The position numbers and the translations under genes were made by a program. Below the pieces are notes generated by a model. The model made no database searches and was not told where the DNA came from. It worked only from the letters and a program-made list of their open reading frames with translations. Shown here in pieces: positions 24,537 to 48,939 of a DNA stretch of 64,000 bases. Origin of the DNA: the human T2T-CHM13v2.0 reference genome, Homo sapiens; the NCBI RefSeq assembly GCF_009914755.1, contig NC_060940.1; one strand, written 5' to 3'. Each line of letters opens with the position of its first letter. The stretch's first letter is position 1.

Positions 24537-25819
24537 CAGGACACGGGTGGTCAAGTGCTGTCTCTTCTCCAAGTTCTCTGTGAGGTGAAATGGTGAGGCT
24601 GACCTATATGTGTCCTTAAGGCAGAATGTGGACTCCACGCAGGGGTGGGTGTTTGTCTGTCTGTCTTGGGACATTGAGTGCCTCACGGTGACTGAAAGCT
24701 GGGAGGAAGGTGTGGTCAGTGTGGGCTCCAGGCAGAAAAGTGAGCAGAGCCTCCTTCTCAGCAGGTCACCCAGATGCTGTGACCTGGAGGTAGTCCTGCA
24801 GGTGGCTGTGAGGGGCTCTCTTGCTAACAGACTGAGGACAGGTGTCTCTCCATCATTTTTTCTCATAAAGGAATGAGTCAGCAGGCTTGAAGAAGGTGGC
24901 CGGCTTGGCCTGGAGGCTGCACATGTGAGGTGCACGGGGTGTGGGCTGTGCGTGCTTCCCCCGGGAGGGAGCATGTCAGCTGGCTTCCATCGGGCAGAGG
25001 CTTCGAGATGCCTTTTGTTTTTCTAGGCAGCGCTGTCACGTCGAGTCTGTAATTTGAAGAAATCAGTTGTTGGCACTCGGTTTTGTGCTGCCTTCCCTTG
25101 CACATGAGAGTGCGTTAGCAGGTGGTGCTCTTCATTCCTTTGTGACTGATAAAGCCACATGCCACCCACCAAGGCACAGGATGACAAGCCCTCCTGGCTC
25201 TCTTGTCTCGCTTCCCACAGTGCCTCTCATGGCCCCACAGATGGAGAGCTGGGAATCGGCTTGTGATTTGAACCACCAGAGTCAGTAACGGGGGTTCTGG
25301 AAAGTGGGAAGGCAACTAACGGTGTAATGGAGACTCTTTAGCTCTTTGGGGACTGCAGGACAGCTCGCCAGGAAAATAGAGGCGTGCACGGTGGCAGGGA
25401 TGCTGCCTGGCTGAGCCTGGAAGGCAAGCCCGTCCTGGCCTTGAGGGGCCTCAGTGGGCATAGTGTAGGGATATGGCTGGGGAAAGCAGGGACTGAGGCC
25501 AGACAGGGTGTTCTCCTCCCAGGTGACGCCACGCTGTGGGGATCCCATGAGCCTCAGCAGCCGGATGCCGAGCACTTCTGTTCCCCTTGTGTCCTGGGCA
25601 CTGCTCAGGGGGGAGACTTCTGCCTCGATTGAAGTCCGACTAGGCCTCCCAGAGCAGGGGCTGCGGGTGCCTTGGGCTGAGGGAGCTCAGGACAGCAGAG
25701 GCACGTGTGCGGGGCTGTGCGTGTTCTTCCCGTCTCCCTGAGCACCTCTCATGGGTTCCTAGGATCCAGTGAGGGCCGCTGCTTCTCCACCTGGTGGGCC
25801 CAGGAAGCTTGCACTTTAA

Positions 25820-25980
25820 GGCCGGTGTTCACTCCTAACTAGTAATTGGACTTGGACACATCACTTCTCCTTTTTCTGGCTTTTGCCTCAAAACCAAAGT
25901 GATGAGAGTAGTGACATTCCTACTTCATGAGGCTTTTTAAAAAAAGTCCATCAAATAACATGAGATCAAATGCTTAAAGT
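25820..25980 (+). mobile_element. MIR fragment
   Basis: actagtaattggacttggacacatcacttctcc...cctacttcatgaggct...ataacatgagatcaaatgcttaaag. Confidence 0.55.
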
Positions 25981-28037
25981 GGAAAATGGCAGTTAAATTC
26001 AAGGTGATCTTTTGATCCCATCATGATAGGATTTTTCCCACTCCCTGTTAAGTGCGGCTGCTCAGTGCTGTCAGAAAAGGTAAAGGAATCCGAGCCCCGA
26101 GGGCTGCCCAGAAGTGGGCGCTTGCCCCAGCTGCTGTCCAGTAGCATCTGCGGGCAGCACCTGCACCCATCTGTGCATTTTCAGATCCTCGCCCTCCTCA
26201 CCCGCCGCGCTCTGCGGGCAGCACTTGGGCGGCTGGTCCATTCTCTGGATCTCCTTGGTGGCCGGCAGGGGGCATTCGCCCAGGCTGGGGCCTGGAGCGC
26301 AGACGGAAGGAATTAGATAATTTGATGTCTGAGGACAGTGGAAACTCGGTGGCGGGTAACCAGATGAATATATATTTTTTATTTAATAAGTATGAGTCAG
26401 GGTTTGAACTGGCAACTTAATTTTTACAAAGTTGAATTTAAATGTGAATGTTTTCACTCATTTCTCTTACCTATACACCTGGGTGTTTTAGATTTATCTT
26501 CTTTCCTGTTACTAACCCGTTTTTAAATTTTGTGTGGACTCATTCATCCTTCAAAGTCTATGGAATTTTTCTCCTGGAGTGTGAAGGTCGGAGGGTCACA
26601 GGAGGGCGGTTCTGAGGATGTTTCTTTTTATCGACTCGTGCTCCAAAGACGTTTTCCTGCTGGTGGGATGGCTGTTTCTTTCTTGCCTCCCGGTGGCAGC
26701 AGCTGGGCTGCTTTGTATCTAAAGTCAGTAGTTGGGCTCTCATGAAACTATTGAAGTGCAGTTTGAAAGCTGGGTTTTCCGGTAACTATGGTGCAACCTC
26801 TGGCAGCAGCTGGGCTCTCCTGTAAGGATTTCCTAGTGATTTTAATGGTTAGGTTCCCCCATGACCACAGCCAGCGGCTGGGTTCCTCTGTGAGTCACTA
26901 AAGTTGCTCAGCCTGGGGCTTCCTGAGGCGCCCCAGTCACCCAGCCAAGATCTGAGGGTGACTTGGAGTATTTTAGAGATGACCCGAGAATTGGAAGCCA
27001 AAGAGCGGCTGCTTCCTGTATGGCTTCTTTATGCATGAGGATGAAAATGTGCTGCCGAAACGACTTTAGGGTGTTCTTCCCTCTCATCCTACAAATCCCA
27101 CTGTCCTGGCTGGTTTCTTTTTGTCTGTAGCACAGACAGGTTTGTTGTGATTATACAGAGAGTCAAAACGTGTCTCAAGTATCTACTGATAAAAAAGTCA
27201 AGAGGCATGTTTCCAAAACCCGAGGGACTTTTGATACCTAATAGAGTACTTAAAAAAACCCAAACACTTCTTTCTCTGTTTTAATTATTTCCACCATTTT
27301 AGTCTCAATGGGAACAGATTTTTAGGGTTTGGGCAGTAGAGTCCAAACTTGAGGCTCTTGGTAGTCAAAACAGGACGCTTTTCAGCTTAATCTTTTTATT
27401 ACTACAATTTTGGATTCCATCCTGTATTTTCCTGTAAATTAGTGAAGTTGCATGAGCCAGCTAGAGAGGCCACTGCATTGAAGAGCCCTTCCCATCATGC
27501 CCAGATTCGTCATCGCTACAGGGATGGGGTCCTGTGGCCTAGTGGGAAGTGGCCAGGCATGCAGTGGGGCGCTGGCTCCATCCTGTCACCTGCTCCGCCG
27601 TGGCCTTCGGATCCTCAGTTTTCTCCCTGTTGAATACAGGGCATCTCTGGATGCTGCTCAGGGCGTGCTGAGAGCTCTCCATAGCGCAGGTGGTAGAGAC
27701 CTGGGGGTCCCAAGACAGTTCTCTGCGTGTGCACGGTGAGCCCCAGGAAGACAATGCACCTGGCTTTGGCCCCACAGTGAGAGTAGGTTGTGCCCACTCG
27801 GCTTGTGGTATAGGGACTCCAGGGATGAGGACACAGGCCCTGTCCGTAAGGAGTTTGTGCTCTAGTTGAGAAAGCACGATGGAGAGGCATTGGGAATGAC
27901 ATAAGCAAGCCCCGGACCTGAGCAGCGATGGGAGGGTGTGTTGCAGTCCGTTGTAATCACTATTTACACAGGAGCAGCCACTGTGCACCAGAATGTTCTG
28001 GGTGCCTGACATCCATGGGTGGACACAACAAAGGCCC

Positions 28038-28382
28038 GTGTTTATGAGGGGGACAGTAACAATACATACGTGAATTCTCCAAACTGTGTTTGCGAGGGGA
28101 ACAGAATAACAATACATAACGTGAATTCTCCAAACTGTGTTTGTGAGGGGGACAGAGTAACAATACATACTTGAATTCTGCAAACTGTGTTTGCCAGGGG
28201 AACAGAATAACAATACACACGTGAATTCTCCAAACTGTGTTTGCCAGGGGAACAGAATAACAATACACACGTGAATTCTCCAAACTGTGTTTGCCAGGGG
28301 AACAGTAACAATACACACCTGAATTCTCGAAACTGTGTTTGTAAGGGGGACAGAGTAACAATACACACATGAATTCTCCAAA
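28038..28382. repeat. 50-bp minisatellite, ~7 copies
   Basis: gtgaattctccaaactgtgtttgccaggggaacagaataacaatacacac (period 50 at 28221/28271). Confidence 0.95.
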
Positions 28383-28966
28383 TGCCAGAAGGTGGTCAGT
28401 GCTCTGACAAAACAAGTGGGAGGAGGGTGGGAGCCCAGGAGGGCGGGAGGGTCAGGTGGTTATCCAGGGGGATGGTGAAGCCAAGACATGAAGGAAGGGA
28501 AGGCGGTGGCCGAGCAGGTCTGAGTAGGCGGAGGACCAGCGAGTTCTGATCCAATTGTTGAGGTCCCTGATCTCACCCTCTGGGCATTCAGGACCTTAGG
28601 TGCTGCTGCGAGTTCAGGGCAGAGGGAAGTTGGAGCATGGAAGGTCTGGGAATCTTGTGAGCGCCCCAAGTGTGCACCTGGTATGGGCCGACCAAGTCAG
28701 AGGGATCAAGAACTTAAGTAAATGGAAAGAGTGTGTCATGACACCTTAGTGAGAATTTATATCTCGTGGGGAGCCCCGCCTGTGGGCCAGCTAAGCACCT
28801 TCTGTGCAGTGGGCCTTTCCAGACCCTTGCAGGAAGATGGGGCCGGCCTGGTGGGCTGGGGTGCCTGGGTGAGGCCTCTTCAGTGGGCCCTGACCCTGCA
28901 GCCAGGCAGCTCCTGGTGGCTGTCCCAAACAGGCCTCACCCCTTCTCCTTGGATGTGTCCTTCCAG

Positions 28967-29134
28967 GTCACCTTTTCTATAAATTTGGCATCACAGAATC
29001 TGACTGGTACCGAATCAAGCAGAGCATCGACTCCAAGTGCCGCACGGCGTGGCGGCGCAAGCAGTGGGGCCAGAGCCTGGTGGTCAAGAGCTTCTCGCGG
29101 AGAATGCCCAACTCATCCTCCTACTGCCCCTCAG
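28967..29134 (+). pseudogene. BANP: BANP-like exon B (168 nt), C-terminal part of BEN domain
   Basis: ttccag|gt cac ctt ttc tat aaa ttt ggc ... tgc ccc tca g|gtaggc; translates HLFYKFGITESDWYRIKQSIDSKCRTAWRRKQWGQSLVVKSFSRRMPNSSSYCPS; phase matches exon A (t+gt = Cys). Confidence 0.95.
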
Positions 29135-30477
29135 GTAGGCCTCGTGCTGCAGGAGAGGCCGCCCTCCCCTGCTCGGGGCAGCTGGCCTGGTGGCACCCTC
29201 AGGGGCAGCCAGAGCGTGGCCGGCGGCTCCACCAATGGCCGGGAGCCGAGGCCAGAGGCTTGTGAGGTGCACACGGAGCAGTGGAGCTGCAGGACCTGTG
29301 CCTGGCCCTGTGCGCCCTTCACACAGACAGCCTCGGGCCTGCTCCAGGCTCCTCTGTGAGGGACAGAGGGCCTGTTGGGCCTCCTGGAAGTCTTCTGGAT
29401 GGGGGCAAGGAGGCCGAGGCCTTTGTGTAGGGCTGCCGGCCATTGTATTCTCACGATTTGCCTGGTGACTCCGGGTGAGGAAGTGGGGTGGATTCTGAAT
29501 TGTGCTTTATTTTTACTTTGAGTTCATGGCCTTAGTTGGATTTATCCACAAGATAATGGAAACAGTTCTCTTTGAGTTGCCTCTCAGGCATTGCTGGGGA
29601 GATTGTTCTCCTTGGAGAATTTTCACTAGGAATGACAATGTGACTTGATACTGCCTTTTACCCAAGACATCTCAAAATATTTTAATACGTATTTGAATGA
29701 AAACTATTCTCTTAAAGCTCCCCACAGTAGCTGCATTGGCAGTGACTCTTGGAACTTGAGCTCTGACTGGGGCTGGGGTCAGGATGCGAGGGCAGCTGTG
29801 GGCAGGGCCAGCTCTCCTATTCAGTGGAGTCTTTGTCGGCCGGAACCCTTTGTTCTGGAAGTCCTGGGAGTTACAGACCAGATCACCTGGAGTTCTCCCG
29901 GGGCCTCGTTCTTTCTGAACCGGACTTCAGGAAGTGGTTTTCCCGGGCTGTTTTGGTAGTTATCAGATACTCGGCCTCAGCTGCTGCCCAGGGGCTTGAG
30001 GATGGGAGGTGGCTGCCTGTAGTGGGCCACACAAGTTGTGTCCCTAAAGCAGCACTTTATTGAGTGACCTGTGTTGAAGAAGCTCTTCTATTCTAGGCCT
30101 TTCTACTACAATGAGGAATTCTGCCTTGGGACTTGAGAGAGGTAGCAGTCCTAGGGTGTGGGTTAGGGGCATTCACTGAAATACCATGTAGCAGCGTAAC
30201 CTGTGGCTATTGAAATGTGGCTGTAGGAATATTGCTCATGACTTGACTTCTCTCTTGAATATTCATAGCTGGGCAACAGAGAGCGATGTGAGGACTATAC
30301 TTATGGCATGATACCATTTTTATTGCAAATATATAGGTATATGTGGAAGTTGATTAAAAATTTATGTGTGATCATTTTTACAGTGCCTATCTCTAGGTAG
30401 TAGGATAATTTTTATTTTTCCCTTTGTCTTTTATTGTAGTTTCTCAGTTATTTCCAATAAGCACTGCATTAGTTTTA

Positions 30478-30812
<335 letters not shown>

Positions 30813-30826
30813 GTCAAGGAGAGGAG

Positions 30827-30874
30827 ATTTCTGTCAGGCACAATTTCTGTCAGGCACAATTTCTGTCAGGCACA
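30827..30874. repeat. 16-bp perfect tandem x3
   Basis: atttctgtcaggcaca at 30827, 30843, 30859. Confidence 0.95.
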
Positions 30875-30879
30875 GTAGC

Positions 30880-31615
30880 AGGAACCAGATTGAATTCTCT
30901 TGCCATTGAAATCTGGACAAAAATCTGTGAATCGGCTGTCCTAAGACATTAGACAAGCAACAGCACAGGACCGTGATCCCGAGAGAAGGAACACGAGAGG
31001 AGGGGACAGGGAGATGCCAGGCAGAGATAGCTACATCACTGCATGGAGGAGATGGGTTGGAGTTGAGAGAGGCTGAGGCAGCAGAAAGTTGTGGAATCAA
31101 GTTCTTAAGAGCAGAGGGTTACACGGGGGCCATCTTGGGTGTTTGGGGGATTCCAAGGCAGGCATGAGCTCAATGGCTCCTAAGCTCACCCCAGGCTGGG
31201 TGGTGGTTGGATTCCCACTAGCCAGAGTCCTCAGTGATCAGTCACTGCACTAGCTGGCCATGCCTACTGGCAGGCTAAACTGTCCCTAGAATAAAGGCAG
31301 AGCTTAAGAGAGCCTGAGAAAGATCACATTGAATCACAAGTAACAACACTTTTAAAAGAAAGACAACAAAACCTAGACACCCAACAAAGTAAAATTCACA
31401 ATCTCCAGTATCTAGTCCAGAGTACCAGGAAGCAGGAGATTGTGACCTATGATCAGAAAATCAGCAAATAGGAAGGGACCCTGTCTGGAATTAACTGACC
31501 AGGACATTGAAATCTATTAAAATTACATTCAGGAATTTAAAGGAAAAAAGGAACATAGCAAGGAGCGAAATAGAAGACATAAAAAAGAACCATATGGAAC
31601 TCCTAGACTCGAAGA
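30880..31615 (+). mobile_element. Old L1M 5'/ORF1-region fragment
   Basis: A-rich ...aaaattcacaatctccag...aagcaggagattgtgacctatgatcagaaaatcagcaaatagga...aaatagaagacataaaaaagaaccatatggaactcctagac typical of L1M ORF1 start. Confidence 0.6.
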
Positions 31616-32539
31616 GCGAGGAGAGTTGTTGCCAGGCTTGCCTTCCATGTGTTTCGGGTACGTGCATTTGGTAAGGTTAGCGGTCTGCTTCATCCAATGG
31701 GGAATCAAAACCCAAGTTAAATGACTTGCCAGGTCCTTAGTGAGCAAGAAGCTGCTGTTATATAACCTGACGACTGCCAGATATGTTGGCCTGCATCATT
31801 AGGATACCAGAATCTTGAAAGGGTAAATTTAGTGAGCTGAAATTTCATAGCTGGAAATGTAGACTAAGAGCATTTGCACAGTAGTAGACGGTGGTGTAAC
31901 AGCATGTGAAGCTGAGTGTTTTGCTGGCTGCGCTGGTGTGCAGGAGCTTCCTCAGAGCCCTTGTGGTTGGAAGGTGCACTCTGGAGCACACCCATTCTTA
32001 GCTTGTCTACCCTGTGGCCCCAGTGGAGCGTTTTGGAGCTGCTGGGAGGAGCTGTCCAGGGACAGACTGTCATGGTGGCAGTGGGCTGGAAACTTGTCTT
32101 TGGGGAAACGGTTAGAAATTGAGATTTCACAAGGTTTGATAACGGTTAGATGCCTGGAGAAGCAGTGCATAAGTGAAGAATTAGGCTGGTTTTGTAGGTG
32201 CTAAGAGGGTCAGTGGAGGAAAAGCAGCTCCGCGGAGGTGGGCTTCAGCCCAGCTGGGATTTTGTCATTTTCTTCCTGGGGTGCACAAGGCTTGCTCGAG
32301 GACCTGTGGTGGTGAGTGCTCTGTAACTGCTCAGGCAGACAGGAAACCGCCATGGAGCACGCAGCACTGCCTGGCGGTGGTTGCTTTGGGACATGACCCA
32401 TCACTGGAGGTGCTCAGGTGGAGTCAGGGTCTTTGGCTGGAGCCAAGCTCTCCACGTGCAGCATGCAGGTGGGCATGTTGAATCTCCTTTGAATCTCATG
32501 AATTTCAGATTCTGATTTAGTGTAGCTAGGCAATTTCTA

Positions 32540-32917
<378 letters not shown>

Positions 32918-32961
32918 CTATGTACTATGGCAATTTAATACCTACCATTAGCTATTGGTAA

Positions 32962-33386
<425 letters not shown>

Positions 33387-33500
33387 TGCTTCTCTTTAAT
33401 AATCAGAAATTTTATGTCTTTCATTTTTCTCCTTTCATTCATATCAACATTCTACTTCTCTCACAGAATTTCATCTTTCTGCTTCCCTCCCCAGTCCCCC

Positions 33501-33782
33501 CGAGATGGAGTCTTGCTCTGTTGCCCAGGCTGGAGTGTAGTGGTGCCATTTTGACTCATTACAACCTCCGCCTCCCAGGTTTAAGTGATTCTCCTGCCTC
33601 AGCCTCCTGAGTGCCTGGGATTACAGACCCCCACCACCACGCCTGTCTAATTTTTGTATTTTTAATAGAGATGGGGTTTCACCATGTTGGCCAGGCTGGT
33701 CTTGAACTCGTGACCTCAGGTGATCTGGCTGCCTTGGCCTCACAAAGTGCTGGGATTACAGGTGTGAGCCACCGTGCCCAGA
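33501..33782 (-). mobile_element. AluSx-like
   Basis: gagatggagtcttgctctgttgcccaggctggagtg...gagccaccgtgccca. Confidence 0.95.
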
Positions 33783-34385
33783 CTACATTTTTACGCTTAA
33801 AAGCTTTTTAAAATTAGTCATTATAATTCTCTGCAACAAAACTATGTGTATACATTGAAAATTAAAGTTTTTCTGCGCTCTTAATATTCTAAGAGTTTAA
33901 GAAAATTATGATTGAGACATCATTACAGTGAAAATTAATACACAGTACATCAAAGCAAATGTATCTCATTTTGATTAAACACAGCAAGTAAAATTTGTTG
34001 GAAATGTATCTTTAAGTGCGTGGATGAGACTTTTGCTCTATTAGTTTAATTACCCATGGACAAATATTGCCAGCCTGAAACAGCTTTTAATGTCCACTTT
34101 AAGAACTTCATTCATTTAAATAAGTTGGGGACTAGAAGGGGTTTTGTCATAGCATCACGCCACTCTCAGGCCCTTCTGCATTCCACGTCGGAAAACTCAG
34201 TTCCTAAGACTCACTCATAGTGACCTCTGCAGAAGAGTGGAGATGCAGTGAGTCGAGGAAAAATGAAGCATTTCCTCTTCTCTGCTGTGGGAGTCGAGAG
34301 TGAGGGACGGGGGTGCACACATGCTGCACAAGGCAATGCCTAAGAAACTTCTCGTTCACCCCGTTCACACCTGTTGCCTCCACAG

Positions 34386-34522
34386 AGCCGATGATGAGCA
34401 CCCCACCTCCTGCCAGAGAGCTCCTGCAGCCACAGCTGCAGCCGCAGGCCCTGCACTACGCGCTGGCCAACGTGCAGCAGGTGCAGATCCACCAGATCGG
34501 AGAAGACGGACAGGTGCAAGTA
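34386..34522 (+). pseudogene. BANP: BANP-like exon C (137 nt), P/Q-rich region
   Basis: ctccacag|ag ccg atg atg agc ... gtg caa gta|gtacgt; EPMMSTPPPARELLQPQLQPQALHYALANVQQVQIHQIGEDGQVQV (inside ORF 34313..34693). Confidence 0.93.
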
Positions 34523-36076
34523 GTACGTACCCTCTCCACCTCGCACCTTGGTAAAGGGGGCTGTGGGGTGGGCCACGGCGGGGCCATGGCGGCTTCCACC
34601 AGTTCCGCTGTGTTTCGGGAGCACAGTGATAGCTTGGGAGGAGGCACAAGGTTCCCATTTAAAGTAGAGGTCATCGTGGCCATGAGCTCTTAACATTTCA
34701 CAGGTGGGGGCGGCTGCTGCAGAGCCTAGGGATTGAAGCACATGGTGGGGTGGGGCATTCAGTCAGCTCACCTCAGTCCTGCCAGCAGGCAGGCGGGCAG
34801 TCAGCTCCAAGGGTCAGGCCGTGCAGTGGTCCCTGCCCCAGCTCGTGCTCCTGGGAAGCAACGGAAATATTTCTCAGCTCAGAAGTGCAGGCGTCCTCTT
34901 ACTGAGGGAAAGAGTAATTTCCTTCTAGGATCAGTGGCAAAAGCTTGAGGTCATTGTTCCCATGCAGCGTTTCCCTTGGAGTTACTCAGCACACCCAGGT
35001 TGGGCGGGCACTGTCCCAGCAGCAAGTCAATGTCCTGCCTTGCCTGTGCGGAGTTCTCTGTTGGGGTTTTGTGACCCAAGCTGTGGTCAGTCTGATGCGC
35101 CTAGGGGCTCGCTCCCGGGTGAAGTCCCTCTACAAACACCTCCTGGATTCTGTGGCACGAGAGTAGGGGGCGGCTGAGAAGAAGACTTTTCTGGAAGCTT
35201 TGCTGAGTGACTAGAAATTTTACATGTACCACTAGACCTAGCCTATGTTTTTAGTGGCACCAGCCCCCTTGGGCCCTCTGAAGACAGGTCATCGTGTGCC
35301 TCCGTGTTACCAGGGCTTTCTCCTGGAAACAAGGTCCTCCACTATTGAGAGTGGGTCGTGGCTCTCATGTCAGTGTGGCTTCAGCGTGCTGTCTGGAAGA
35401 GGGAAGGCTTCCAGAAAATTCTGGGGCTTTTAGAGGGGGCATTCCCTTCCTCTTCCAAAGGAGATGAGACAGTTATGAATAGTGAATCTTATTTAATAAG
35501 CTTATTAATTTGTTTGGCATTCACAATGGCAGTTCCTCTCATCTTGTTAGTAAGAAGTTCTTTGAAAGCGTTCCAGAGTAGATAACTTTGTCATAAGGCT
35601 TACATAGAACTTTCTACAGGAGTTTAAGATCCATTTCAACTAAGAGAGAATTTCAAATAAGATAAGGAGTATTCATTTCATTTACAGGTTTATAGGAAAT
35701 ATTTGTCTGCCCGTATGTATAAACAGTGGATTCTTTGATTTTTTTTGAATCACATTTGTTAGTGTTTCCTCAAACTGTTTAAATAGTCATATGAGTGTTT
35801 CTTTGATTTGAAAAACGTTGCCTGCCCTGTTGTGAGTGTAGGCACGCAAACAGCTCCCCTGCTTCAGCCACACACTGCTTGTGTAGCCTCCCAGCATCCC
35901 CAGAGAGCTGAACGTATCATTTGAAAAGAGGCGTCATTGTGATTTTCTATTTCCCCTCTTTTCTGTGTGTCATGCACATTTTAAAATTTACTTGTTTAGT
36001 AACATTTAAAGATGTATATATCTTTCCTGGGACCTATTGCTCCTTTGTGAAGTACTGGAACATGTTCTGTGTTACA

Positions 36077-36416
36077 CAGTACCCCCCCTTACCCATGCTT
36101 CCACTTTCCTAGGTTTTAATTACCCACAGTCAACTGTGATCTGAAAATATTAGATGAGAAATTCCAGAAATAAACAATTTGTAAGTTTCAGATTGCATAC
36201 TCTTCTGGGTAGTACCATGATGAAGTCTGGTCGTCCTGCTGTGTCCAGCCCGGGATGTGAGTCATTCCTTTGTCCAGCATGTCCAAGCTGTGTGGCACGT
36301 ATGGGCAGGAAAAAGCATAGCATATACGGGGTTCAGCACCATCCACGGTTTCTGACGTCCACATGGTGGGGGGAGGGGGCGCTTCTTGAAACCCTCATGG
36401 ATGAGGGGGACTACTG
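36077..36416 (+). mobile_element. MER44A-like (TcMar-Tigger) MITE
   Basis: Terminal inverted repeats cagtacccccccttaccc ... ggatgagggggactactg; internal gaaattccagaaataaacaatttgtaagttt. Confidence 0.85.
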
Positions 36417-36600
36417 TGAACCAAAAGCTTAATTTAAAGAGGTGACCACAGACTATATTGCACTATTCAGGATTTAGTTATCTTTTTGAATTGTAAACAG
36501 ATAATCAAGAACAAACATTCCGGAAGATGTTTCTTGTTTCCTTTGCTTTTTATTTTCTTCTGATGCTTCTTGGTGTCTTTTCTTACTGCGGATCCCACAG

Positions 36601-36663
36601 GGACACCTCCACATCGCCAAGGTGCCACAGGGGGAGCAAGTCCAGATCACGCAGGACAGCGAG
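36601..36663 (+). pseudogene. BANP: BANP-like exon D (63 nt)
   Basis: Long pyrimidine tract, then atcccacag|gga cac ctc cac atc gcc aag ... agc gag|gtgagt; GHLHIAKVPQGEQVQITQDSE. Confidence 0.92.
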
Positions 36664-38849
36664 GTGAGTCATCTCTCGCTGCAGCCCTGTCCCTGCAGGC
36701 ACTGTGCCCGCATGCTCCCGACCTTCATCAGTGTCACAGTGTGAGGGCAGCAGGGAGCCCCCAGGATGGGGAACGTGGGCGAGGGCTGCAGGACTCCGCT
36801 TCCAGGGTGCACATAGCGGGCCTGCAGTCTCTGTGGCCTCACTGCCTCCCCCTCCTGTCCGTTGGTCTCCACAGCTTCTGGTCTGTCTTGGCAAAGATCT
36901 CCTGGGTAGATGTTTCTGCTCCTGGCTGGAAGTGCCCTCTGAGTACCCTTCTCTCCCTGTCTGGCCCTGCCCTTCCTGCCAGGGGAGGGCCCCAGTGTGG
37001 CCGAGATGGGGTCTGCCCCTGCACAGGTGACCTGACATACCCCCTCACCTGCCATGTGGCCCCAGCTTCCTGGTGGCCTCTACAGGATTAGTGCCGATTT
37101 CATAGGATGGTGGGGAATCCCACAAGGTGATGCTGCCAGTCCTGAGAGCTGGTCATAGCCCTGACGCACCTGCCGTGTCTGTGATTGTCTCAGTTTCTGG
37201 AGCTCTACCCAGCCACGCACTCAGAAGTGCGGGCTCAGCTGCTGTTGGGGTCTGGAATGTGAAGGCGGGAGTGACAGTCTGAGTTCTTGGAAAGCCGAGG
37301 CCGGCCGGTTGCGATGCTCCGTGTTTGCGTACCAGAGCAGGACTGTCTTCCGGGTGGCTGGTGACCGTCCTTCGACTCTGGGCTGTTTCCTGCAGCACAG
37401 GCAGCAGCAGGCACAGGGCACTAAGCAGCACACACGTGTTGTACTGAGTGACCGTGGTGCGCTCTGGGGGATGAGGAACATGGCTGTTTCTAGGTGGTGA
37501 CAATGGCACCAGCTTTGTGTTTGGTGCATAGTAGTGTGTCGCTACGAAGATCTCAGGCTTCCCCACACACACCAGCAGCAGAGACTAGGAAGCCCAGGTG
37601 CTGAGGTCAAGGGGACTCATGGACATGTTGGCGTGCGAGGCCTCCCGGGAGCTCATGCTGGGTACAGGTGCTGTGGGGGAGCAGAGGAGAGAGAAGCCCT
37701 GCCTTCGGGGACTCACAGTGGGCACAGAGCCTCCTGCCCAAGTGCCCGTGAGCAAGACTGTGGACACATGCACGCCGTGGCACGTGGAGCACCAGGGACT
37801 TAGGTGTGTCTGCTGGCAGTGGCTTTAATTTGGACACCAGCAGTTCCCAGTGGGTTATCCTGAGAGGGGAGCACATGCATAAGGGTTCCAGGGGTGGAAT
37901 GAGGATGAGGTGAAAGGGGAGGAATGAATTCATGTGGGGGCCATGAGCGACTGGGAATGAGTGGGCTCATCCACACAGCGACATGACCAGGTCACTAAGA
38001 AACATGTGGTCAGATGGATGGATGGAAGGAAGCACCAGGGCGGGGAGCAGGTAGGGGACGGTCCCAGGAGGCCAGAGTGTCCAGGAAGGGGCAGGGCCTG
38101 GTTCTGTGTCTGTGGGTGGGTCAGGGACCATCTCCCTGGAGATGTCGGGAGATGCGCCTGTCAGCTCAGCAAGGTCAGGTGCAGGAGTTGGGGGCCTGAG
38201 CGGCTGCGAGGTGCAGGATCCCAGCAGCACCTTCCAGTGCAGGAGCTGCCTTTGAGGGGCAGGGGAAGGTTTGCTTCTCAAGGCACAGACAGGTTGGGGC
38301 TGGGAGGCTAAGCTCACTGCCAGAGACCTCAGCCAGAGTTCTTGAATACCTGGAAGCCTATGAAGTTCGTCGGAATGCTTAATTTCCTTAGAGTCATTGA
38401 AAATGCAGGAAAATTGAAACAGCAGCAAAAGAAAAAAATCAACACACATTTGCTTTTTATAGTTTATGCTAAAAAATCTTGACTACTGGAATTTCAATTT
38501 TTTATTATTAGTTTTATCCTTCAGTTTTCAAAACTGAATCCATCTTGTATAGGTGATTGTCTTTCATTTTCATTAGGAATTGAATGCAGTAAGTTAGAAA
38601 TTGCTAATAATACTAACGATGGCTTTGTGATAAGTGACAGTATGCAGTCTCCTCACCATAAATTCATACCATGTTCATTTAAAATTATTTTGTTAAAACA
38701 GGATATCTGCAAATAAACATTTAGCAGGGTCTAACAGACATAAAACAGTTCCTTTTTACAACAAATGAAAATGAATTTCTAACTGGAGAGCTCTTAGTAG
38801 CTCTGTGGTTGAGTGAGTTGGTTCCTTGCGTGCAGCCCGTGACCTGGCG

Positions 38850-38972
38850 TGGTGATGCCGCACAGCTCAGCAAGGCGTCCCCCTTTGGGGAAGCTGGGTG
38901 ACATGCACATAGGACCTCTCTCTGCTACTTTCTGTACTTTTTGTGAGTCAGATTCTTTCAAAATAAAAAATG
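38850..38972 (+). mobile_element. L1MC-like 3' end fragment
   Basis: ggggaagctgggtgacatgcacataggacctctctctgctactttctgtactttttgtgagtc...tttcaaaataaaaa. Confidence 0.7.
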
Positions 38973-39166
38973 AAGTAAAAATGACATTTTCATTTGGGGT
39001 CAGGGTGGGGGAATGGGTACAGTGCTTTTTGAGTTGTTTGTTCACCTTTAAAATAATAAATAGTACCTAGAAATCTAAATATTTTGTTTTGGGGCTTTTG
39101 TTGCTACTGGAGGTTGAATTTTTGCAGAACTAGTGTTTTTCTTGTTATTCTCAAGTGGCCTGTGAT

Positions 39167-39240
39167 GTGTCTTGGCGTGTTTGCCGTGTCTGCGGGTGTC
39201 TTGGTGTGTTTGCTGTGACTGCGGGTGTCTTGGTGTGTTT
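39167..39240. repeat. 29-bp GT-rich tandem (~2.6 copies) just upstream of exon E acceptor
   Basis: gtgtcttgg(c/t)gtgtttgc(c/t)gtg(t/a)ctgcgg repeated. Confidence 0.8.
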
Positions 39241-39275
39241 CTACTCATGACCGTTCCTCCTCTCGTTCTTTGTAG

Positions 39276-39314
39276 GGCAACCTCCAGATCCATCACGTGG
39301 GGCAGGATGGTCAG
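39276..39314 (+). pseudogene. BANP: BANP-like exon E (39 nt) with mutated splice donor (CTGAGT)
   Basis: ctttgtag|ggc aac ctc cag atc cat cac gtg ggg cag gat ggt cag|ctgagt; GNLQIHHVGQDGQ. Confidence 0.9.
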
Positions 39315-39550
39315 CTGAGTGTCCCAGTCCCCATGCACATGCGGGCGTTGCGCTGCCAAGGGGTGGGGTTCTCAGGGGAGGGGGTGGGACGGTCAGGTGA
39401 GTGCCCTGGTCCCCATGTACATGTGGGCATTGTGCTGCTGAGGGGTGGGGCTCTCATGGGAAGGGGGCGGATGGTCAGGTGAGTGCCACAGTCCCCCTCT
39501 CACATATAGGCCATTGTGCTGCCAAGGAATGGCGGCTCTCATGGGAGGAA
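39300..39550 (+). repeat. 82-bp tandem repeat (~3 copies) whose unit spans the exon E end and donor site
   Basis: gga(t/c)ggtcag|(c/g)tgagtg with the +1 position at 39315, 39397 and 39479 (period 82). Confidence 0.85.
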
Positions 39551-41661
39551 GCAAGGGTGCAAAGGCCTCTCAGTGTGAGCCCCAGAGCAGGACTGGCTTT
39601 CCTCACCATGGCAATGCACAGGCCTGGAAGGGGGAGGGCGGGGCTTGGGGGTTACATTTGCTGCTCCGTAGGATTTCAGCAGCTTTTGCATTATGGCGGA
39701 AACATGCCCTCCCACCCCCACCACCCCACCCCCTTCAGATGGTTATTTTCTGCACACGCATGTGTATGTTGATGGTGGTCATATTTGCACAGATAACTCT
39801 GTTAGAAAAAGGTGGTTTCGCTCCTGTGTATTGCCATCAAACTCACAAACTTGCCTGCTTTCTAATCCTTGACAAAAAGAGTGACCATTGGTTGAACACC
39901 CCAGTACGAATGGTCTTTACAAAATGATGTGCTCCGACGGTGCGGGTCCTGGGGAGGGTGTTGCTGTGCAGGACAGAGTCAACTCGCTGGTGGTTTTGAG
40001 GCTGTGTGTTCCTAGGTCCTGGTGAAGACCCTTTCTGTTCAGGAGATGGCTGTCACCTCTGGATCATTGAAGAATCTGGGTGATCTTCCCATTTCATAAA
40101 ACAGAAGCTGGGAAGTTGACAGTGAGAACCATAAACAGAGCTCACTGTGTAGAAAGATAATACTAATTTTTCAAAACCACAGCGCACTGTCCTATGAGAA
40201 ACCTGCATGCGTTCCCTTTGTCAAGGCCAGGCCCTGCAGATCTCTGACCCGACTGAGCCTGGGGCACCCCCAGAGTGAGGTGCTTTACACAGAGGGGGAC
40301 AGAAGGGCATGTGCTCCCGTGGGCTTTCTGTTGACCCCTCAGAGGCACCTTGGGAGAAGGGCTGCAGACCCTCCGAAACTGGTTTATGTCAGAGTTTCTT
40401 AGTTGGAAAGTTTCATCTTAAAGATCAGCACGAGGTTTTCTCAGGTAGTCCTGCAGCATCGCTCGTCTGTAAGTATGAAATTGCTGCTCTGGAAAAGAGC
40501 CAAAGGAATGCGCAGCTTTTAAATCCACAGTTGTGGCCTTGCGCTCACTCCACTGGGGTAATGAGGCTGCGGCGGGCGCAGTGCAGGTCAGTTCTCCGCG
40601 CCTTTGTCCCCCGTGGTTCTCACGGTCACGGGGGCAGCAGAGGACAGGGCTCATAGCTGGCGGTCCGTCTTAGTTTTCTGCAACATAGTGGTTTATGGTT
40701 CTGCTGGTAGTGGAACTGTATCATAGTTGAAACGCTGCTGGACGTTTAATTCCTAGGAAAAGTAAGGCACGTCACCTTCGATATTCCCTTGTTCCTGTCT
40801 CTACCCCTGAACAAAATCCACTTGGAATTTTAAAGATAGAACCAGGCTTTTACACTGTATCACTGCAGTGCTTCTGTTTGTGATTGTAGACAGAATTCTC
40901 CCAACTCTACTGTGGGGACAGAGATTCCAGCTTTTCTCAGCAGGCATGGAGGCCCATTGGCTCCAGCACAGATCTGAGTTCAGGAAGGACTCAGGGCTGA
41001 TGTCGGAGGAGTTGCTGTCTGGATTTCTCTGAACAAGATTCCGTTCTGGTGTCTCTCGTTCCTCCGTCACTGCTGCCGCCCCACGTGCCTTTGCACTGCA
41101 AGCAGGGTCGCAACTGCTGCTCATTCCCGCCTCTTCCGTGGCCCCTCCGAGTTCCCACTGTCTCTAAGTGGCCTCACCGCAGAATGAATAAAGCTGCCGT
41201 ACTACCACTTTTTATGTGAAACAAATAATAATTTATAAATCACCTGTTTTTTTTTCCCCTTGTGAACTCTCATACGCTCCTGATTCCTATTATCGGTCAC
41301 ATTTCTGGGACCTCAAATCAAAGATGGCTTCAGGAGAGGCCGGTGCTGCACTCAGGGTAACGGGCGGAATCTTGGTACATGGCCCCTGCTTCTCTTGGGA
41401 AGGAAACTGCTGTGTGATTTAAAGAAACCACTGTGTTCAACTGAAGCTGCCTTTTCTGGTAAATCTGTGTAGTGAACCCCCTCGTTTTCCATTTGTGGAA
41501 ATTCTTTTTTTTTTCCATCATTTGGCCAGTTCTCATTCCTGCTGAGCTACACCCTACTCATGCAGGCTTTGTCCTCCGGGCTGGCCACACGTTTGGGAGA
41601 CAGAAGGATGTTTCAGAAAGCACAGAGAAGCCCACTCGCCTCGATGTTGTTGACTGGGCTA

Positions 41662-41923
41662 AGAAGCCCCGAGCCGTGGGGGGGGTCACACAGCCCATTT
41701 GCTCTCCTCCCCGTCCCAGTGCCTACAGAAGCCCCGAGCCGTGGGGGGGGGTCACACGGCTCATTCACTCTCCTCCCCGTCCCCGTGCCTACAGAAGCCC
41801 TGAGCCGTGGGGGCGGTCACATGGCCCATTCGCTCTCCTCCCCATCCCCATTGCCTACAGAAGCCCCGAGCAGTGTGGGGGTCACACGGCCCATTCCCTC
41901 TCCTCCCCACCCCCATGCCCACA
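41662..41923. repeat. 65/66-bp minisatellite, 4 copies
   Basis: agaagccccgagccgtgggggg(g)tcacacggcccattcgctctcctccccgtcccc(a/g)tgcctac at 41662, 41727, 41793, 41859. Confidence 0.92.
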
Positions 41924-43226
41924 GGAGGATAGTGCATGCAGGTCTAGGGCTCTCTCTTCTCCAGCCAGACTTGATCTCAGAAGCATCCTTCATGTGACAC
42001 TGCAGATGGCTCAGCTCCCCGTCCTGTCCCAGAGGCCCTTGGCCTGCCCTGGTGTGAGCACTGGCTTGATTGATGGGAGACCCTGCAGCCCACGCTTGTT
42101 CCAGGTAGTTGGGGGAAGGCGAGGAACAGCACCCCAACCGGAGTAAGAGAACACAAAGAAATGGACGCGGCTGCTTTAAGTTCCTAGATCACTGAGGATT
42201 GGCTTAGTATTCCCTTCTGATTCCCTAGTTCCAACTGTCATTTAGGAGTGGTTATGTGGCAATAGACTCAGAATCTGACAGAGCAGCTAGAAATCCTCTT
42301 GGGAGGGTGGCCAGGCCTCCCCTCTTCCGGCCGTCCATTTTCCATCCTGGGGCCGGGGCCTGTGCCCTGCGCCCTGTGCCCCACATCCTGCACACCACCC
42401 CCTTTCCTTGTGCTGGGCTCACACTTGTTGCTGTTCTCCTCCTATTCCACTTCTGAGATGATTGTTGCTATTACTTCTTGTAGTTAATTGATTATTTTCA
42501 GAATTAGTGGACAGCTTCTCTGAAAATAGCCTCCATTCTTAGTTCCACGGAGGGAGGGATGTACGCTGTGCTTGTGGATTGCTGCTGGGGCGACGGGTTT
42601 GAGGCCACGTCTGCGGCCAGCAGCAATGTCAGTTCCAGGAGGGCCTTGGTGGCTGCGGTGCTGGGAAGCGCCATTGTGCTGCGTTGGTGTGACCCTGTGG
42701 CACCTGCTGCCAGGGGACCATTCTTTTTGAGTCATGTTTTCTTCAAATTAAATATTGAGAGATTCTAGTGACATCCCACAGTTGCCATTTGCTGTCTGAG
42801 TAGAAAATATGAAGAATCGCCTGATTTGAAGCTATGTGGTCAGTTTCATGTCCATAGCAGCCTTGCTTTTCTTCCTTGCTGAGAGATGGACTGCCCCGTC
42901 TCACGCTCTTTCTGCTGTTATGTCTCTGTCCGCTCTGATACTGAGGTTCCAGGAGGGCTGCCTTGGCCTCCTTTCCCTGTAGCCCACGACACCCGCATCC
43001 TCTGGCTTCTTTGCTGACAGTTGTGGTGTGCGCTTACATCTGGTGCTGGGTTGCAGGCAGGGTGGGACTCACAGCTGTTCGTTGACTCTGGGAGGGCTCC
43101 CCTGGCTGAGGCTGTCTGCTGACAGGTGCTCTGCAGGTGAGCATGAGCCTGCACTAAGGAATGCTGATTAGAGTCCATTTCAGGCCCTGTTGGGCACACT
43201 GGGAGTGCGCAAGAACCACAGAGCCT

Positions 43227-43345
43227 GAGAGACACAGTAGGAGGGTGGGAGATGCAGTAGGAGGGTGAGAGACGCAGTAGGAGCATGGGAGACACTGTAG
43301 GAGGGTGGGAGACACAGTAGGAGGGTGAGAGACACAGTAGGAGAG
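43227..43345. repeat. 20-bp tandem, ~6 copies
   Basis: gagacacagtaggagggtg(g/a). Confidence 0.9.
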
Positions 43346-43974
43346 GTCGGGAGAGCCACCTGCACCAAGGCCTCAGGACAGCGAATGGCACAGCCATGGG
43401 GAGGGTGACTGCCTGTGCAAGGCCGGAGGCCATGGGCACCCAGGTCCAGTGAGGTCGGACGGAGCCCCCGGTGCTCAGCCTCCTGTGACCAGTGTTGGGG
43501 GGTAGCAGTAGCGGACAGTGCATCCCAAATGTGGGCAAGAAGTTTGGAAAGATTGGCAGAGCACCAGAGGCTTCATAAAGAGCCATTTGGGAAGACAAGG
43601 TTCGGGGGATGGTGGTGGGTGCGCAGGTGTGGGGACGCACTGGCTGCATGGTGCCCGCTTCCTCCTCCCCGAGCCGTGCTCTCCAGCGCTGTGTCTCAGC
43701 CTCCCCTCCAGGAGCGCTCACTTCCTCTCAGCTCTGGGCCCCTGTGGCCTCTGCTTTGCCAGCTGCCCAGCCGTGATGACTAGTTTCCACTCCAGTGCTA
43801 TCTCTGTCTTTATTGTTCTTTTTGACCTCTAAGTGCACATGCTGTCGTGCCTCAGTGTTCCAGCATTGCTGACTGGGAGAGGGAAGAAGAGGTGAGGGAG
43901 AGGGAAGAAGAGGTGAAGGGCTTTCTTAGAACACTGACATTGAAATTGCAGCTGAATCTTTAAAAAAAATGTTT

Positions 43975-44271
<297 letters not shown>

Positions 44272-45587
44272 TCAATGGTTTTTCAAAAAATTAAAATACT
44301 TAAAAAATTATTTGGAACCACTTTGGCTGGTTTCAAAGGTTGTGTATTATCTTTCCTCCTGAATAACAACTTTACATAAGAGTGGGCATTGAGGTCACTG
44401 TGGGAGGTGCCTAAGTTAGAGTCTCAGTCTCGGGCTTTGTAGAGCAGAGCCCCTGTGTGTGTGTGGACGTGTGCTGCCCTCCTCGCCTCCTGCCCTCCAC
44501 CGCGTCCTCATCATGCACCTAATCTGCTGCCTTCCAGGGAAGCCAAATAGCCACTGCTGTTGGAGTTGAAATTAAAATGCAGTGGCTGGTTCTGGTCATG
44601 GCTCCAGGCATGGGTAGCTCCTTCGGGTGAGCTACGTAGAGCTGAGCCTGGGTCTTTGGCTGTTTAGATGCATTTGTGGCTGTGTTCTGGGTGCTTCTTC
44701 GTTGAGAGTGGAGTTGTGGAGAAATGGCTCCTTCATCAGCTGACTACACTGTGCTGATTTCTTTTGTCCCTGCCTCACTGGGGGTGTGAGGCATCCGGGC
44801 AGCATTTTCCTTTACTGGACAATCCCCTAGTGTTGGCTTTGTTGCTCAGTGAGTATTTGAAATTAATTATTTGCTGCCCTGGGCATGAAGATCAAATGAT
44901 ATCATAGCAGAAATTTGGAATGATTTAAGTAGAGGTGTTATTGTATTGCCCATATGGTTAACTTAAGGGATTGCAGAATTGGTTTGAGTAGAGGACAGGC
45001 CTTGTATGGTAAATTAGACCAGAATCAGGGGCATCTGGAATTCCCTGAAATTCCCTGGAGCAGGGAGAGGCAGTCTGGTGTGCCAGCGATTCACAGAGCG
45101 AGAGAGTACATTCAAACAGATGGTGCCAGGAGTGTAAAATAATGTATTGTCTAAGGAATTTCAATTTTCAGTTAGTGGTAAGGATAATAAAATCTTTAAT
45201 TTGGTGCAGATTTTCAGAAGATTCTGAAAAACAAAAAAAGCCCTTAAAAATTAAGAGTTGTAAGGATTGAAATTTGCAGGGAGGTGGATGACTTTATTTT
45301 TGAGTGCATTTTAAATGAAAATTGATGGGTTTTTTATGAGGTCATGGGAACTTTTGCATAAGGTGGATAGACCAGTTGGCCACTTCAGGGGGCTGACAGG
45401 GGAACCGCTGGTTGGTCATACCTGCATCTTGGTGCAGCTGCTTTGCTGCCGTGGGTACCCTGAGCCAGTGCTGCATGACCTGGGCAGACTCCCTATAAAG
45501 GCGAACTCGCATTCTGCGGCGATGCTGCCTCTGGAGTGATGAGTGCATGCGAGCTGCATGGCTGGACTCTACCAGCATCTGCGCAAG

Positions 45588-45780
45588 CCACAGCAGGAAG
45601 CAGCTTTCCATCGCGGTTCTAGAACCCTCCTCTCTCACTCATGCGTGTGCACACACACAGTCGGAACAGGTCCACAGGACAACAGGCTACAGCGAGAAGG
45701 CAGCTTTCCATTGTGGTTCCAGAGCCCTCCTCCCTCGCTCACATGTGTACACTTACACGGTCCGAACAGGTCCACAGAAT
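45588..45780. repeat. 100-bp diverged direct duplication
   Basis: cagctttccat...ggtt...ccctcct...aacaggtccacag at 45601 and 45701. Confidence 0.85.
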
Positions 45781-46052
45781 GGTATTACTGTGTGCTGATT
45801 GCACTAATATTTTTTATTCTGTTTTCTGTTCTGCTTTTCGTTTCTCTCCCTTTTTGTCTCTTTGAAAACTGGCTATGACACATTGCATTGATTTTGCAAC
45901 CCACACTTCGAAAAATACTGGAATAGATGATCGCTAATGTCTCTTTCTTAAGAGTTTGTAGTTCTAAAAGTTGTAATTGCGTAGCTGGGACTATAGGTGT
46001 GCACCACTGCATCTGTGTAATTAAGTAATTTTTAAAAATTTACAACTATATA

Positions 46053-46377
<325 letters not shown>

Positions 46378-46517
46378 TTAATATTCTTCCTCTCATATTT
46401 TGATAAATCAAAAGATAATTGTTCTTGAATTGGGAAGCTTTTTAAAAAATCACATTCAATCTAAGAAAAATGATTATAAATGTGCTAGTTAAAAAAATGT
46501 TTAGCGTGCTTCTCAGG

Positions 46518-46718
46518 GCTTTTCATCTAGATCAGGAAAATTAGGATTATCCATGTCACTTGGGCATTAGAGTGAAGTTTCCCTGCTTTTCATCTAGATC
46601 AGGAAAATTAGGATTATCCGTGTCACTTGGGCATTAGAGTGAAGTTTCCCTGCTTTTCATCTAGATCAGGAAAATTAGGATTATCCGTGTCACTTGGGCA
46701 TTAGAATGAAGTTTTCCT
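46518..46718. repeat. 67-bp near-identical tandem x3
   Basis: gcttttcatctagatcaggaaaattaggattatcc(a/g)tgtcacttgggcattagagtgaagtttccct at 46518, 46585, 46652. Confidence 0.95.
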
Positions 46719-47717
46719 GAGAACTGCAGTCAGGTTTTTGGCATGGCTGACCTTCTGTTGGTCATATGGTGGGCATGGAATGGAAGATGGCTCGATGTTT
46801 GCCGCGGCTGTCCATGCCCCTCTACGCCATCCACAAGCCTCTGACCGAGTTGTCCATGCATGCATTTGAGCGTTTCTTGCAGGAGAGGCCGGGGCCAAAG
46901 GAACGCTTCAGTTGCAGCTGGGCTGTGCCAAGGGGCCTCAGCAGGAGCAACCCTTGGGGGCCAGAGCCCAGGCTCTTCCAGCAACAGGAAGGACCTTTCT
47001 TCCCTCTGCAGCACCTGTCGAACATAACATGCTGGACTCCCTTGTTCATTCCCGGCAGAGAAGCGCTCCCCTCACCCCCCACAGAGCCCTGCTATGCCGG
47101 GCACTCAGACCAGCCAGGGGTGGGGGAGCCTGTGAGTAAAGTGGAGAATTGGAGGTGTGGTGCCACCCTGACCACAGCACCTTTCTTCTCCCTGAGGCCA
47201 CCTCCTCAAATACTCTTCTTGGCCACAGATGAGGGCCCAGCTGTGGTTGGCAGATCTTTTGGGAGATAACTGGATGTGTGGGGTTGAGAGAGTTGCCATG
47301 GGTCCCAGTCTCAGGGCGGCCGCTCCCTCAGTGTCTGTCATCTTGGGATGCAGCAGTGTCGCTTCCTCGTGCTTCAGTGCCCTCTTCACTGCAGTGGGAT
47401 GGCAGCAGCACCTGCTCAGGAAGTTGGTGGGTTTTGCTGGGTGCACACGGCCCACCTGACACTCACCAGCCTCTGGGCTGCCCTTGGCAGGTGCCGTCCA
47501 CACTCCAGCACTCAGGGAAGGGTGGTGCAAATCCTGAAAAAATGACCACACAGACACTGGCACCCAGGTGGTGAGTAGGCAGGCTGTGGTCTGCAGACAG
47601 AAGCTTTACCCTGTATACGTACAAGGAGTAACAGCTGCTCATTTGAGTGAAGTCACTGGACTGCGGCCCTTAGAGCCTCCTGACGCGGAGGTGGGCCTTT
47701 CACTTCTGCCTTTTGCA

Positions 47718-47720
47718 TGT

Positions 47721-47755
<35 letters not shown>
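47718..47755. repeat. (TG)n microsatellite
   Basis: Direct reading. Confidence 0.95.
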
Positions 47756-47988
47756 ATTTTAGAGATACTGTTTTAAAACTGTGTACTCAAAGCATTAGTT
47801 AATTAACTAGGAAGTTTTGTCTTGTGAAAATGATGACCAGGACTGAACCTTTTAAAACAGATCATCTGAACCTCATCGCTGTAAAGCAATCTGGACTACA
47901 AAGTTCATTCTTTCCGTGAATTAAATGGTTTGGTAAAGAAATACTGAGCGTAACATGGACGTGCTCTAGTGATCTTAGGGAGCTGTGA

Positions 47989-48350
<362 letters not shown>

Positions 48351-48352
48351 TT

Positions 48353-48719: not shown

Positions 48720-48939
<220 letters not shown>

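What the first reader, a model, noticed from the sequence alone, without database searches (positions are those of the whole stretch)
39300..39550. Dead exon donor backed up by intact donor copies inside an 82-bp tandem repeat
Seen: the exon E donor is GGTCAG|CTGAGT (G+1>C). The repeat unit containing it recurs twice at 82-bp spacing with perfect donors: GGTCAG|GTGAGT at 39397 and 39479. Using donor 2 extends the exon by 82 nt with no stop and ends in phase 1 (TCA G|), exactly the phase needed by the SNX29 exon; the original phase-0 donor would have been out of frame with it. Donor 3 ends in phase 2. Inference: a minisatellite acts as an array of splice donors in three different phases, and the point mutation may switch the locus to the one in frame with SNX29.
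Basis: partly seen in the sequence, partly recalled or inferred. Interest (0 to 1): 0.75.

Follow-up and report, generated by a model that had tools for sequence, protein, structure and literature searches.

The report
Inherited spare splice donors in pseudogene
An old 82-base repeat, copied from the BANP gene into a human chimeric pseudogene, carries two spare splice signals behind a mutated one, but the reference transcript leaves the exon out and a second mutation blocks the proposed fusion protein, so this is likely ordinary pseudogene decay.

Summary
Exon E (39276-39314) has a G+1>C donor, followed by perfect CAG|GTGAGT copies at 39397 and 39479 in a 3.0 x 82-bp repeat. The repeat and both spare donors also lie in the parent BANP intron and in the sister copy SNX29P1, where donor 1 is intact. 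So they are inherited, and only the G>C is specific to SNX29P2.

Donor 2 does enter the SNX29 exon in frame, but for only 17 codons. An extra A at 63886, shared with SNX29P1, then shifts the frame to a stop in the next exon. None of the four routes into that exon stays open.

RefSeq NR_002939.3 skips exon E, and a published read matching SNX29P1 includes it at donor 1. A hit at some GT/AG is expected by drift in about 17% of such lineages. The anatomy is a known kind (F7 intron 7 minisatellite), where loss of the first donor gives next-site use or skipping depending on distance. Minor use of donor 2 is not excluded. Interest is low.

The parts
39276..39314 (+). Exon E: 39-nt BANP-derived exon, phase 0/0, last BANP exon in the duplicated piece; skipped in NR_002939.3
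   Evidence: annotation table
39312..39320 (+). Donor 1, destroyed by G+1>C at 39315; G in BANP and in SNX29P1
39299..39548 (+). 3.0 x 82-bp degenerate minisatellite; unit 1 spans the exon-intron boundary (16 exonic bases); inherited from BANP
39394..39402 (+). Pseudo-donor 2, CAG|GTGAGT, +1 at 39397; would give a 121-nt exon, phase 1
39476..39484 (+). Pseudo-donor 3, CAG|GTGAGT, +1 at 39479; would give a 203-nt exon, phase 2
39360..39384 (+). Four G-runs (G-quadruplex-type motif) between donors 1 and 2; would become exonic if donor 2 were used
39442..39467 (+). Second four-G-run motif, between donors 2 and 3
36601..36663 (+). Upstream BANP-derived exon (63 nt, phase 0) whose donor joins 63835 directly in NR_002939.3
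   Evidence: annotation table
63835..64000 (+). First SNX29-derived exon (ends at 64016, beyond the window); 182 nt against 181 in the parent
63886..63886 (+). One-base (A) insertion shared by SNX29P1 and SNX29P2; breaks the RUN-domain frame after 17 codons
48059..48258 (+). Overlap where BANP homology ends and SNX29 homology begins, inside masked repeat 48017-48380 (Alu-like, label recalled)
11971..48258 (+). BANP-derived duplicated segment (92-96% identical to chr16:94.08-94.12 Mb) with five BANP exons, including BEN-domain exons

Best explanation
The 82-bp repeat and its two spare donors came into SNX29P2 with a duplicated piece of BANP, and the G+1>C change is likely a neutral mutation whose main effect is likely skipping of the 39-nt exon, with no BANP-SNX29 fusion frame gained. 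Shown: the array is in BANP, SNX29P1 and SNX29P2; G>C is in SNX29P2 only; all four routes into the first SNX29 exon hit a stop; the RefSeq transcript skips the exon. Inferred: with donor 1 intact the most upstream site wins (F7-type selection). With it gone, the next site is 82 nt away and lies behind G-runs that would become exonic, so exon definition mostly fails. Any donor-2 product would end in a premature stop and would be predicted to be degraded by nonsense-mediated decay (50-55 nt rule, recalled).
For: Three loci hold the region; the repeat and donors 2 and 3 are in all three, and donor 1 is G in the other two. Extra A in both pseudogenes against the parent. Entry phases 0, 1 and 2 stop after 7, 63 and 69 codons. 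NR_002939.3 joins 36663 to 63835 (annotation table); my exon model sums to 1585 nt (last acceptor corrected by one base), the length listed. The supplement of PMC13122177 lists one read with exon E joined at donor 1 (100% match to NR_045011.1, SNX29P1, marked validated) and one skipping read. P2-only substitutions are 98 of 14108 columns, so P(at least one hit in 26-28 GT/AG bases) is about 0.17. Amino-acid changes: 12 observed against 8.6 expected in the BANP part and 7 against 7.6 in the SNX29 tail under a neutral pseudogene branch. In F7 minigenes skipping rises with distance to the next live site (PMC1557585). G-rich elements may silence when exonic (PMC545594, passage).
Against: No RNA-seq junction counts were available. 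One RefSeq model and two published reads cannot exclude minor use of donor 2 or 3, and decay would hide such products. The skipping read is identical in P1 and P2 over its whole length, so it cannot be assigned to a locus, and the paper lists it as not validated. In F7, loss of the first donor alone gave only next-site use at +37 nt, and CAG/gtgagt is the perfect sequence that did compete there. Raw pN/pS is below 1 (0.35 and 0.17; binomial p 0.014 and 0.0003); I attribute this to selection on the parent branch and high synonymous divergence, but without an outgroup the branches cannot be separated. Only one haplotype was seen.
Confidence: 0.82

Rival explanations
1. F7-like activation without function: most SNX29P2 pre-mRNAs would use donor 2, but the product is frameshifted and degraded, leaving the skipped form to be cloned.
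For: Donor 2 is a 9 of 9 consensus match. In F7 the next site took over after loss of the first. The resulting 121-nt exon is of ordinary size. Decay would mask the product.
Against: The skipped RefSeq form also has a stop about 475 nt before the last junction, so decay does not obviously favour it. The distance of 82 nt is in the range where F7 constructs began to skip. G-runs lie between the sites. No donor-2 read appears among the 2 BANP-SNX29 junction reads listed in the supplement, which keeps only the longest read per gene pair.
Confidence: 0.1
2. Frame rescue by another route: donor 2 or 3 would join a later SNX29 exon, bypassing the frameshifted one, and yield an open BEN-SNX29 chimeric protein without the RUN exon.
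For: 3 of 16 donor-acceptor combinations stay open to the end of the last annotated exon: donor 2 to the third or fourth SNX29 exon, and donor 3 to the second. The BANP frame is open from an ATG before the BEN domain.
Against: It needs extra skipping of one to three exons with intact splice sites. No such transcript was found in the annotation or in the papers searched. About one in three joins is in frame by chance. BANP exons show no fewer amino-acid changes than neutral expectation. An out-of-frame upstream ATG precedes the BEN ATG.
Confidence: 0.04
3. C39315 is a rare allele or an assembly error, and most people keep donor 1 in SNX29P2.
For: Only one genome was examined. The exon-E-containing read is identical in P1 and P2 and could come from a P2 haplotype with G.
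Against: The curated P2 transcript skips the exon while the P1 transcript matches the including read (annotation table), as expected if the change is common. P2 has many private substitutions, about 0.7% of sites.
Confidence: 0.04

Closest known systems
F7 intron 7 37-bp minisatellite with 5' pseudo-sites (PMC1557585; read parts 1-4 of 6: abstract, introduction, results, start of discussion)
   Same: The first unit spans the exon-intron boundary; the donor is reiterated in the intron; the upstream site is the authentic one; loss of it forces a choice between the next site and skipping.
   Different: 82-bp unit with only 3 degenerate (80%) copies; the donors are perfect consensus rather than CV 74; the natural inactivation sits in a pseudogene copy; the reference transcript shows skipping; length polymorphism was not tested.
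IFI6 (6-16), CBS intron 13, lamin B2 (100-bp) and PDGF intron 4 (81-bp) boundary minisatellites (known to me only as summarised in the introduction of PMC1557585)
   Same: Repeat arrays of donor copies; lamin B2 and PDGF have similar unit sizes and use only the authentic site.
   Different: Those have 10-25 copies, and IFI6 and CBS use two pseudo-sites. No use of a pseudo-site is shown here.
BANP-SNX29 chimeric pseudogenes SNX29P1/SNX29P2 (PMC13122177; passages and supplementary table rows)
   Same: This is that locus pair: BANP 5' parent, SNX29 3' parent, complex intron fusion, junction reads reported.
   Different: The passages and rows I saw do not mention the repeat, the G+1>C change or the frameshift; I did not read the whole paper.
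Reported SNX29P2 protein (PMC11087800; passages and part 1 of 3 of the supplement)
   Same: Same gene name; a 241-codon SNX29-derived frame starts at ATG 63988.
   Different: That frame lies downstream of the frameshift and does not depend on exon E. The paper used tagged constructs, had no antibody, and the construct sequence was not in what I read.

Membership tests
Boundary-spanning minisatellite with 5' pseudo-sites (F7 intron 7 type) | First unit spans the exon-intron boundary | tested here: met
   Unit 1 is 39299-39380 and the exon ends at 39314
Boundary-spanning minisatellite with 5' pseudo-sites (F7 intron 7 type) | Donor sequence reiterated in the intron | tested here: met
   Two further CAG|GTGAGT sites in each of three loci
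Boundary-spanning minisatellite with 5' pseudo-sites (F7 intron 7 type) | Most upstream site is used when intact | tested here: inconclusive
   One published read and the SNX29P1 RefSeq match use donor 1; only donor 1 keeps the BANP frame; no junction counts
Boundary-spanning minisatellite with 5' pseudo-sites (F7 intron 7 type) | Next site is activated when the first is lost | tested here: inconclusive
   The RefSeq model shows skipping; no donor-2 read found; minor use not excluded
Boundary-spanning minisatellite with 5' pseudo-sites (F7 intron 7 type) | Copy number varies between people (VNTR) | not testable with these tools
   One genome only; paralogues differ by one 56-bp partial unit without a donor
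Transcribed chimeric unprocessed pseudogene | Intron-containing pieces of two parent genes joined in DNA | tested here: met
   BANP homology 11971-48258; SNX29 homology 48059-48520 and from 50180 on
Transcribed chimeric unprocessed pseudogene | Disabling lesions and near-neutral coding change | tested here: met
   Frameshift at 63886, dead donor, amino-acid changes at neutral expectation; no outgroup
Transcribed chimeric unprocessed pseudogene | Spliced transcripts across the fusion | tested here: met
   NR_002939.3 in the annotation table; junction reads
In-frame fusion gene (BANP-SNX29) | Open frame from BANP through the first SNX29 exon | tested here: not met
   0 of 4 routes into that exon stay open
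In-frame fusion gene (BANP-SNX29) | Translated product | not testable with these tools
   No proteomics or ribosome profiling at hand

The most novel reading that the evidence does not exclude
Loss of donor 1 diverts part of the SNX29P2 transcripts to the repeat's spare donors, and some of these bypass the frameshifted RUN exon (donor 2 to the third SNX29 exon, or donor 3 to the second). This gives a young chimeric protein of about 435-486 residues that joins a BANP BEN DNA-binding domain to the SNX29 middle region through repeat-encoded residues.
Probability: 0.04. Interest if true: 0.55.

Novelty: new member of a known kind. Interest (0 to 1): 0.13.

Why it matters
It matters little biologically. 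The one useful aspect is a natural three-way comparison in a single genome: BANP and SNX29P1 keep donor 1 and SNX29P2 has lost it, with perfect-consensus spare donors at +82 in all three. Junction counts could test upstream-first donor selection and its distance limit on native chromatin. The case also shows that a strong spare donor nearby need not rescue a +1 mutation, which bears on how splice variants are interpreted. If BANP itself used the spare donors, it would make a frameshifted C-terminus predicted to escape decay.

Tried and rejected
Frame rescue through the first SNX29 exon: rejected. Repeat arising in the pseudogene or after the mutation: rejected, because units pair one-to-one with BANP units. 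Stop-free extension as a sign of selection: rejected, 49% of shuffles are also open. Purifying selection on the pseudogene frames: raw pN/pS is below 1, but counts match a neutral pseudogene branch; not resolved without an outgroup. RNA structure hiding donor 2: inconclusive, mean unpaired probability 0.15-0.47 depending on G-quadruplex settings against 0.24 for donor 1. Recursive splice sites at the AG|GT copies: unlikely, since upstream sequence is G-rich rather than pyrimidine-rich. Other GT/GC donors near the exon score at most 6 of 9 consensus matches. Minus strand: no donor motif copy, only short open frames, no annotated gene. Literature: searches listed no paper whose title or abstract describes the BANP repeat or this donor change; the library lacks most subscription journals. 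Supplements of PMC7419210 (3 files) had no BANP, SNX29, RUNDC2 or 16q24 rows. Supplements of PMC10078293 (10 files searched, file 1 not searchable) had one unrelated, non-significant BANP row. Earlier scan notes were not available. SpliceAI and MaxEntScan are not available here.

Full report
Observation. A 3.0-copy, 82-bp array lies at 39299-39548, with units about 80% identical. Exon E is 39276-39314, 39 nt, phase 0 at both ends; its donor has C at +1 (39315); CAG|GTGAGT recurs with +1 at 39397 and 39479. Donor 2 would give 121 nt (phase 1) and donor 3 203 nt (phase 2), both without a stop. Two copies of the 9-mer in 64 kb are not rare by count (36 of 100 shuffles), and an open 82-nt extension at 68% G+C occurs in 49% of 20000 shuffles. 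The register of the sites is due to the repeat.

What the locus is. A genome search with 39200-39600 found three places on chromosome 16: the window, 21.29 Mb (98%) and 94.11 Mb (94%). The first SNX29-derived exon likewise matches 21.31 Mb and 12.08 Mb. I call these SNX29P1, BANP and SNX29. The labels rest on Pfam BEN and RUN matches for window exons (2 of 5 pieces matched), on PMC13122177 listing BANP and SNX29 as parents of SNX29P1, and on recalled map positions. BANP homology covers 11971-48258; SNX29 homology covers 48059-48520 and 50180 onward. The overlap lies in a masked repeat that looks Alu-like (recalled label). The next BANP exon is 27 kb downstream in the parent, beyond the breakpoint, so exon E is the last BANP exon carried over. 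RefSeq exon 1 comes from a third source at 94.34 Mb.

The array is inherited. The repeat and both downstream donors are present in BANP and in SNX29P1, and donor 1 is G in both. Units pair one-to-one across loci; BANP has one extra 56-bp partial unit without a donor, which puts its third site at +220. In the 99 bases around exon E, G>C at +1 is the only difference between P2 and P1.

The frame argument fails. The first SNX29-derived exon is 182 nt in both pseudogenes and 181 nt in the parent, because of one extra A at 63886. Entering in phase 1 (donor 2) follows SNX29 for 17 codons, leaves the frame, and stops after 63 codons in the next exon. Phase 0 (donor 1 or skipping) stops after 7 codons; phase 2 (donor 3) after 69. 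With donor 2 the stop lies about 305 nt before the last annotated junction, which predicts nonsense-mediated decay by the 50-55 nt rule (recalled). Because the insertion is shared by P1 and P2 and G>C is not, parsimony puts the frameshift first; gene conversion or polymorphism could blur this. Of 16 donor-acceptor combinations, 3 stay open (donor 2 to the third or fourth SNX29 exon, donor 3 to the second); all need extra skipping and lack the RUN exon. Lengths of 435 and 486 residues for two of them follow by adding the 166 residues upstream of the 63-nt exon.

What transcripts show. The annotation table has NR_002939.3 joining 36663 to 63835, skipping exon E. My exon model, with the last acceptor corrected by one base to 72728, sums to 1585 nt, the length listed for that record. 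The supplement of PMC13122177 lists two BANP-SNX29 junction reads from ovarian tumour data. One includes exon E at donor 1, matches NR_045011.1 (SNX29P1) fully and is marked validated; the other skips exon E, matches NR_002939.3 and is marked not validated. Compared by eye, neither read contains a base that separates P1 from P2. They fit 'intact donor includes, dead donor skips' but do not prove it. The table keeps one read per gene pair, so the lack of a donor-2 read is weak evidence.

Is the change special? P2-only substitutions are 98 of 14108 aligned columns in three blocks. The chance of at least one hit among the 26-28 GT/AG bases of the shared exons is about 0.17 on the P2 branch and 0.3 on either branch. 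Against the parents, pN/pS is 0.35 for the BANP exons and 0.17 for the SNX29 tail, both below neutral in a raw test (p 0.014 and 0.0003). That test pools the selected parent branch. Taking half the mostly intronic divergence as the pseudogene branch gives 8.6 expected against 12 observed, and 7.6 against 7, so there is no sign of constraint; an outgroup is needed to be sure.

Mechanism. PMC1557585 (parts 1-4 of 6 read) describes the same anatomy in F7 intron 7 and names IFI6, CBS, lamin B2 and PDGF as further cases. There the most upstream live site wins; loss of the first site alone activated the next at +37; loss of more sites gave increasing skipping; only the perfect CAG/gtgagt competed with the upstream site. 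Here the next site is 82 nt away, close to the distance at which F7 constructs began to skip, and six G-runs, including a four-run quadruplex-type motif, lie between donors 1 and 2. G-rich elements act as intronic enhancers and may silence when exonic (PMC545594, one passage). I infer mostly skipping, with perhaps some donor-2 product that is degraded. The perfect consensus of donor 2 argues the other way, and folding gave no clear difference in accessibility.

Relation to the reported SNX29P2 protein. PMC11087800 (passages, part of the supplement) reports a tumour-suppressive SNX29P2 protein from proteomics and tagged constructs, without an antibody. A 241-codon SNX29-derived frame starts at ATG 63988, after the frameshift; it does not need exon E. 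Whether this is their construct could not be seen, and the unread supplement parts may bear on it.

Verdict. A real feature and a new instance of a known kind; I found no description of the BANP repeat in the listings. The proposed switch into frame is contradicted by a lesion 24.5 kb downstream. Allele frequency of C39315 and real junction use remain untested. Interest 0.13.

Noticed in passing
L013, G000:C16:94109105-94109363 (BANP parent): Both spare donors in BANP (+82, +220) are phase 1. Their use would frameshift the C-terminus with a stop 19 nt before the last junction, predicted to escape decay. No evidence of use was found.
   Followed up: partly
window 9400-10660: This stretch, with RefSeq exon 1, is 96% identical to chr16:94.343 Mb, so the locus is a mosaic of at least three sources. 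Exon 1 begins directly after an acceptor-like AG, suggesting unannotated upstream exons.
   Followed up: partly
window 30096-30522: SNX29P1 homology starts only here, so P1 lacks the BEN-domain exons that P2 retains.
   Followed up: partly
window 20389-36663 (exons): The BANP frame is open in NR_002939.3 from an ATG before the BEN domain, giving a possible 194-residue product that stops early in the SNX29 exon; 12 residues differ from BANP.
   Followed up: partly
window 39167-39240: A 29-bp repeat just upstream of the exon E acceptor differs in copy number between P2, P1 and BANP.
   Followed up: no
window 48521-50179: About 1.7 kb between the two SNX29-homologous blocks had no match to the fetched BANP or SNX29 stretches; it may be the intergenic insertion mentioned in PMC13122177.
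   Followed up: no
L010, window-equivalent 73103: The RefSeq transcript ends exactly at a donor; the 241-codon frame stops only by reading through it. A published read continues from this exon into other sequence.
   Followed up: no
window 69404 equivalent (L010): In-frame 3-base deletion in the third SNX29-derived exon, shared by P1 and P2.
   Followed up: no
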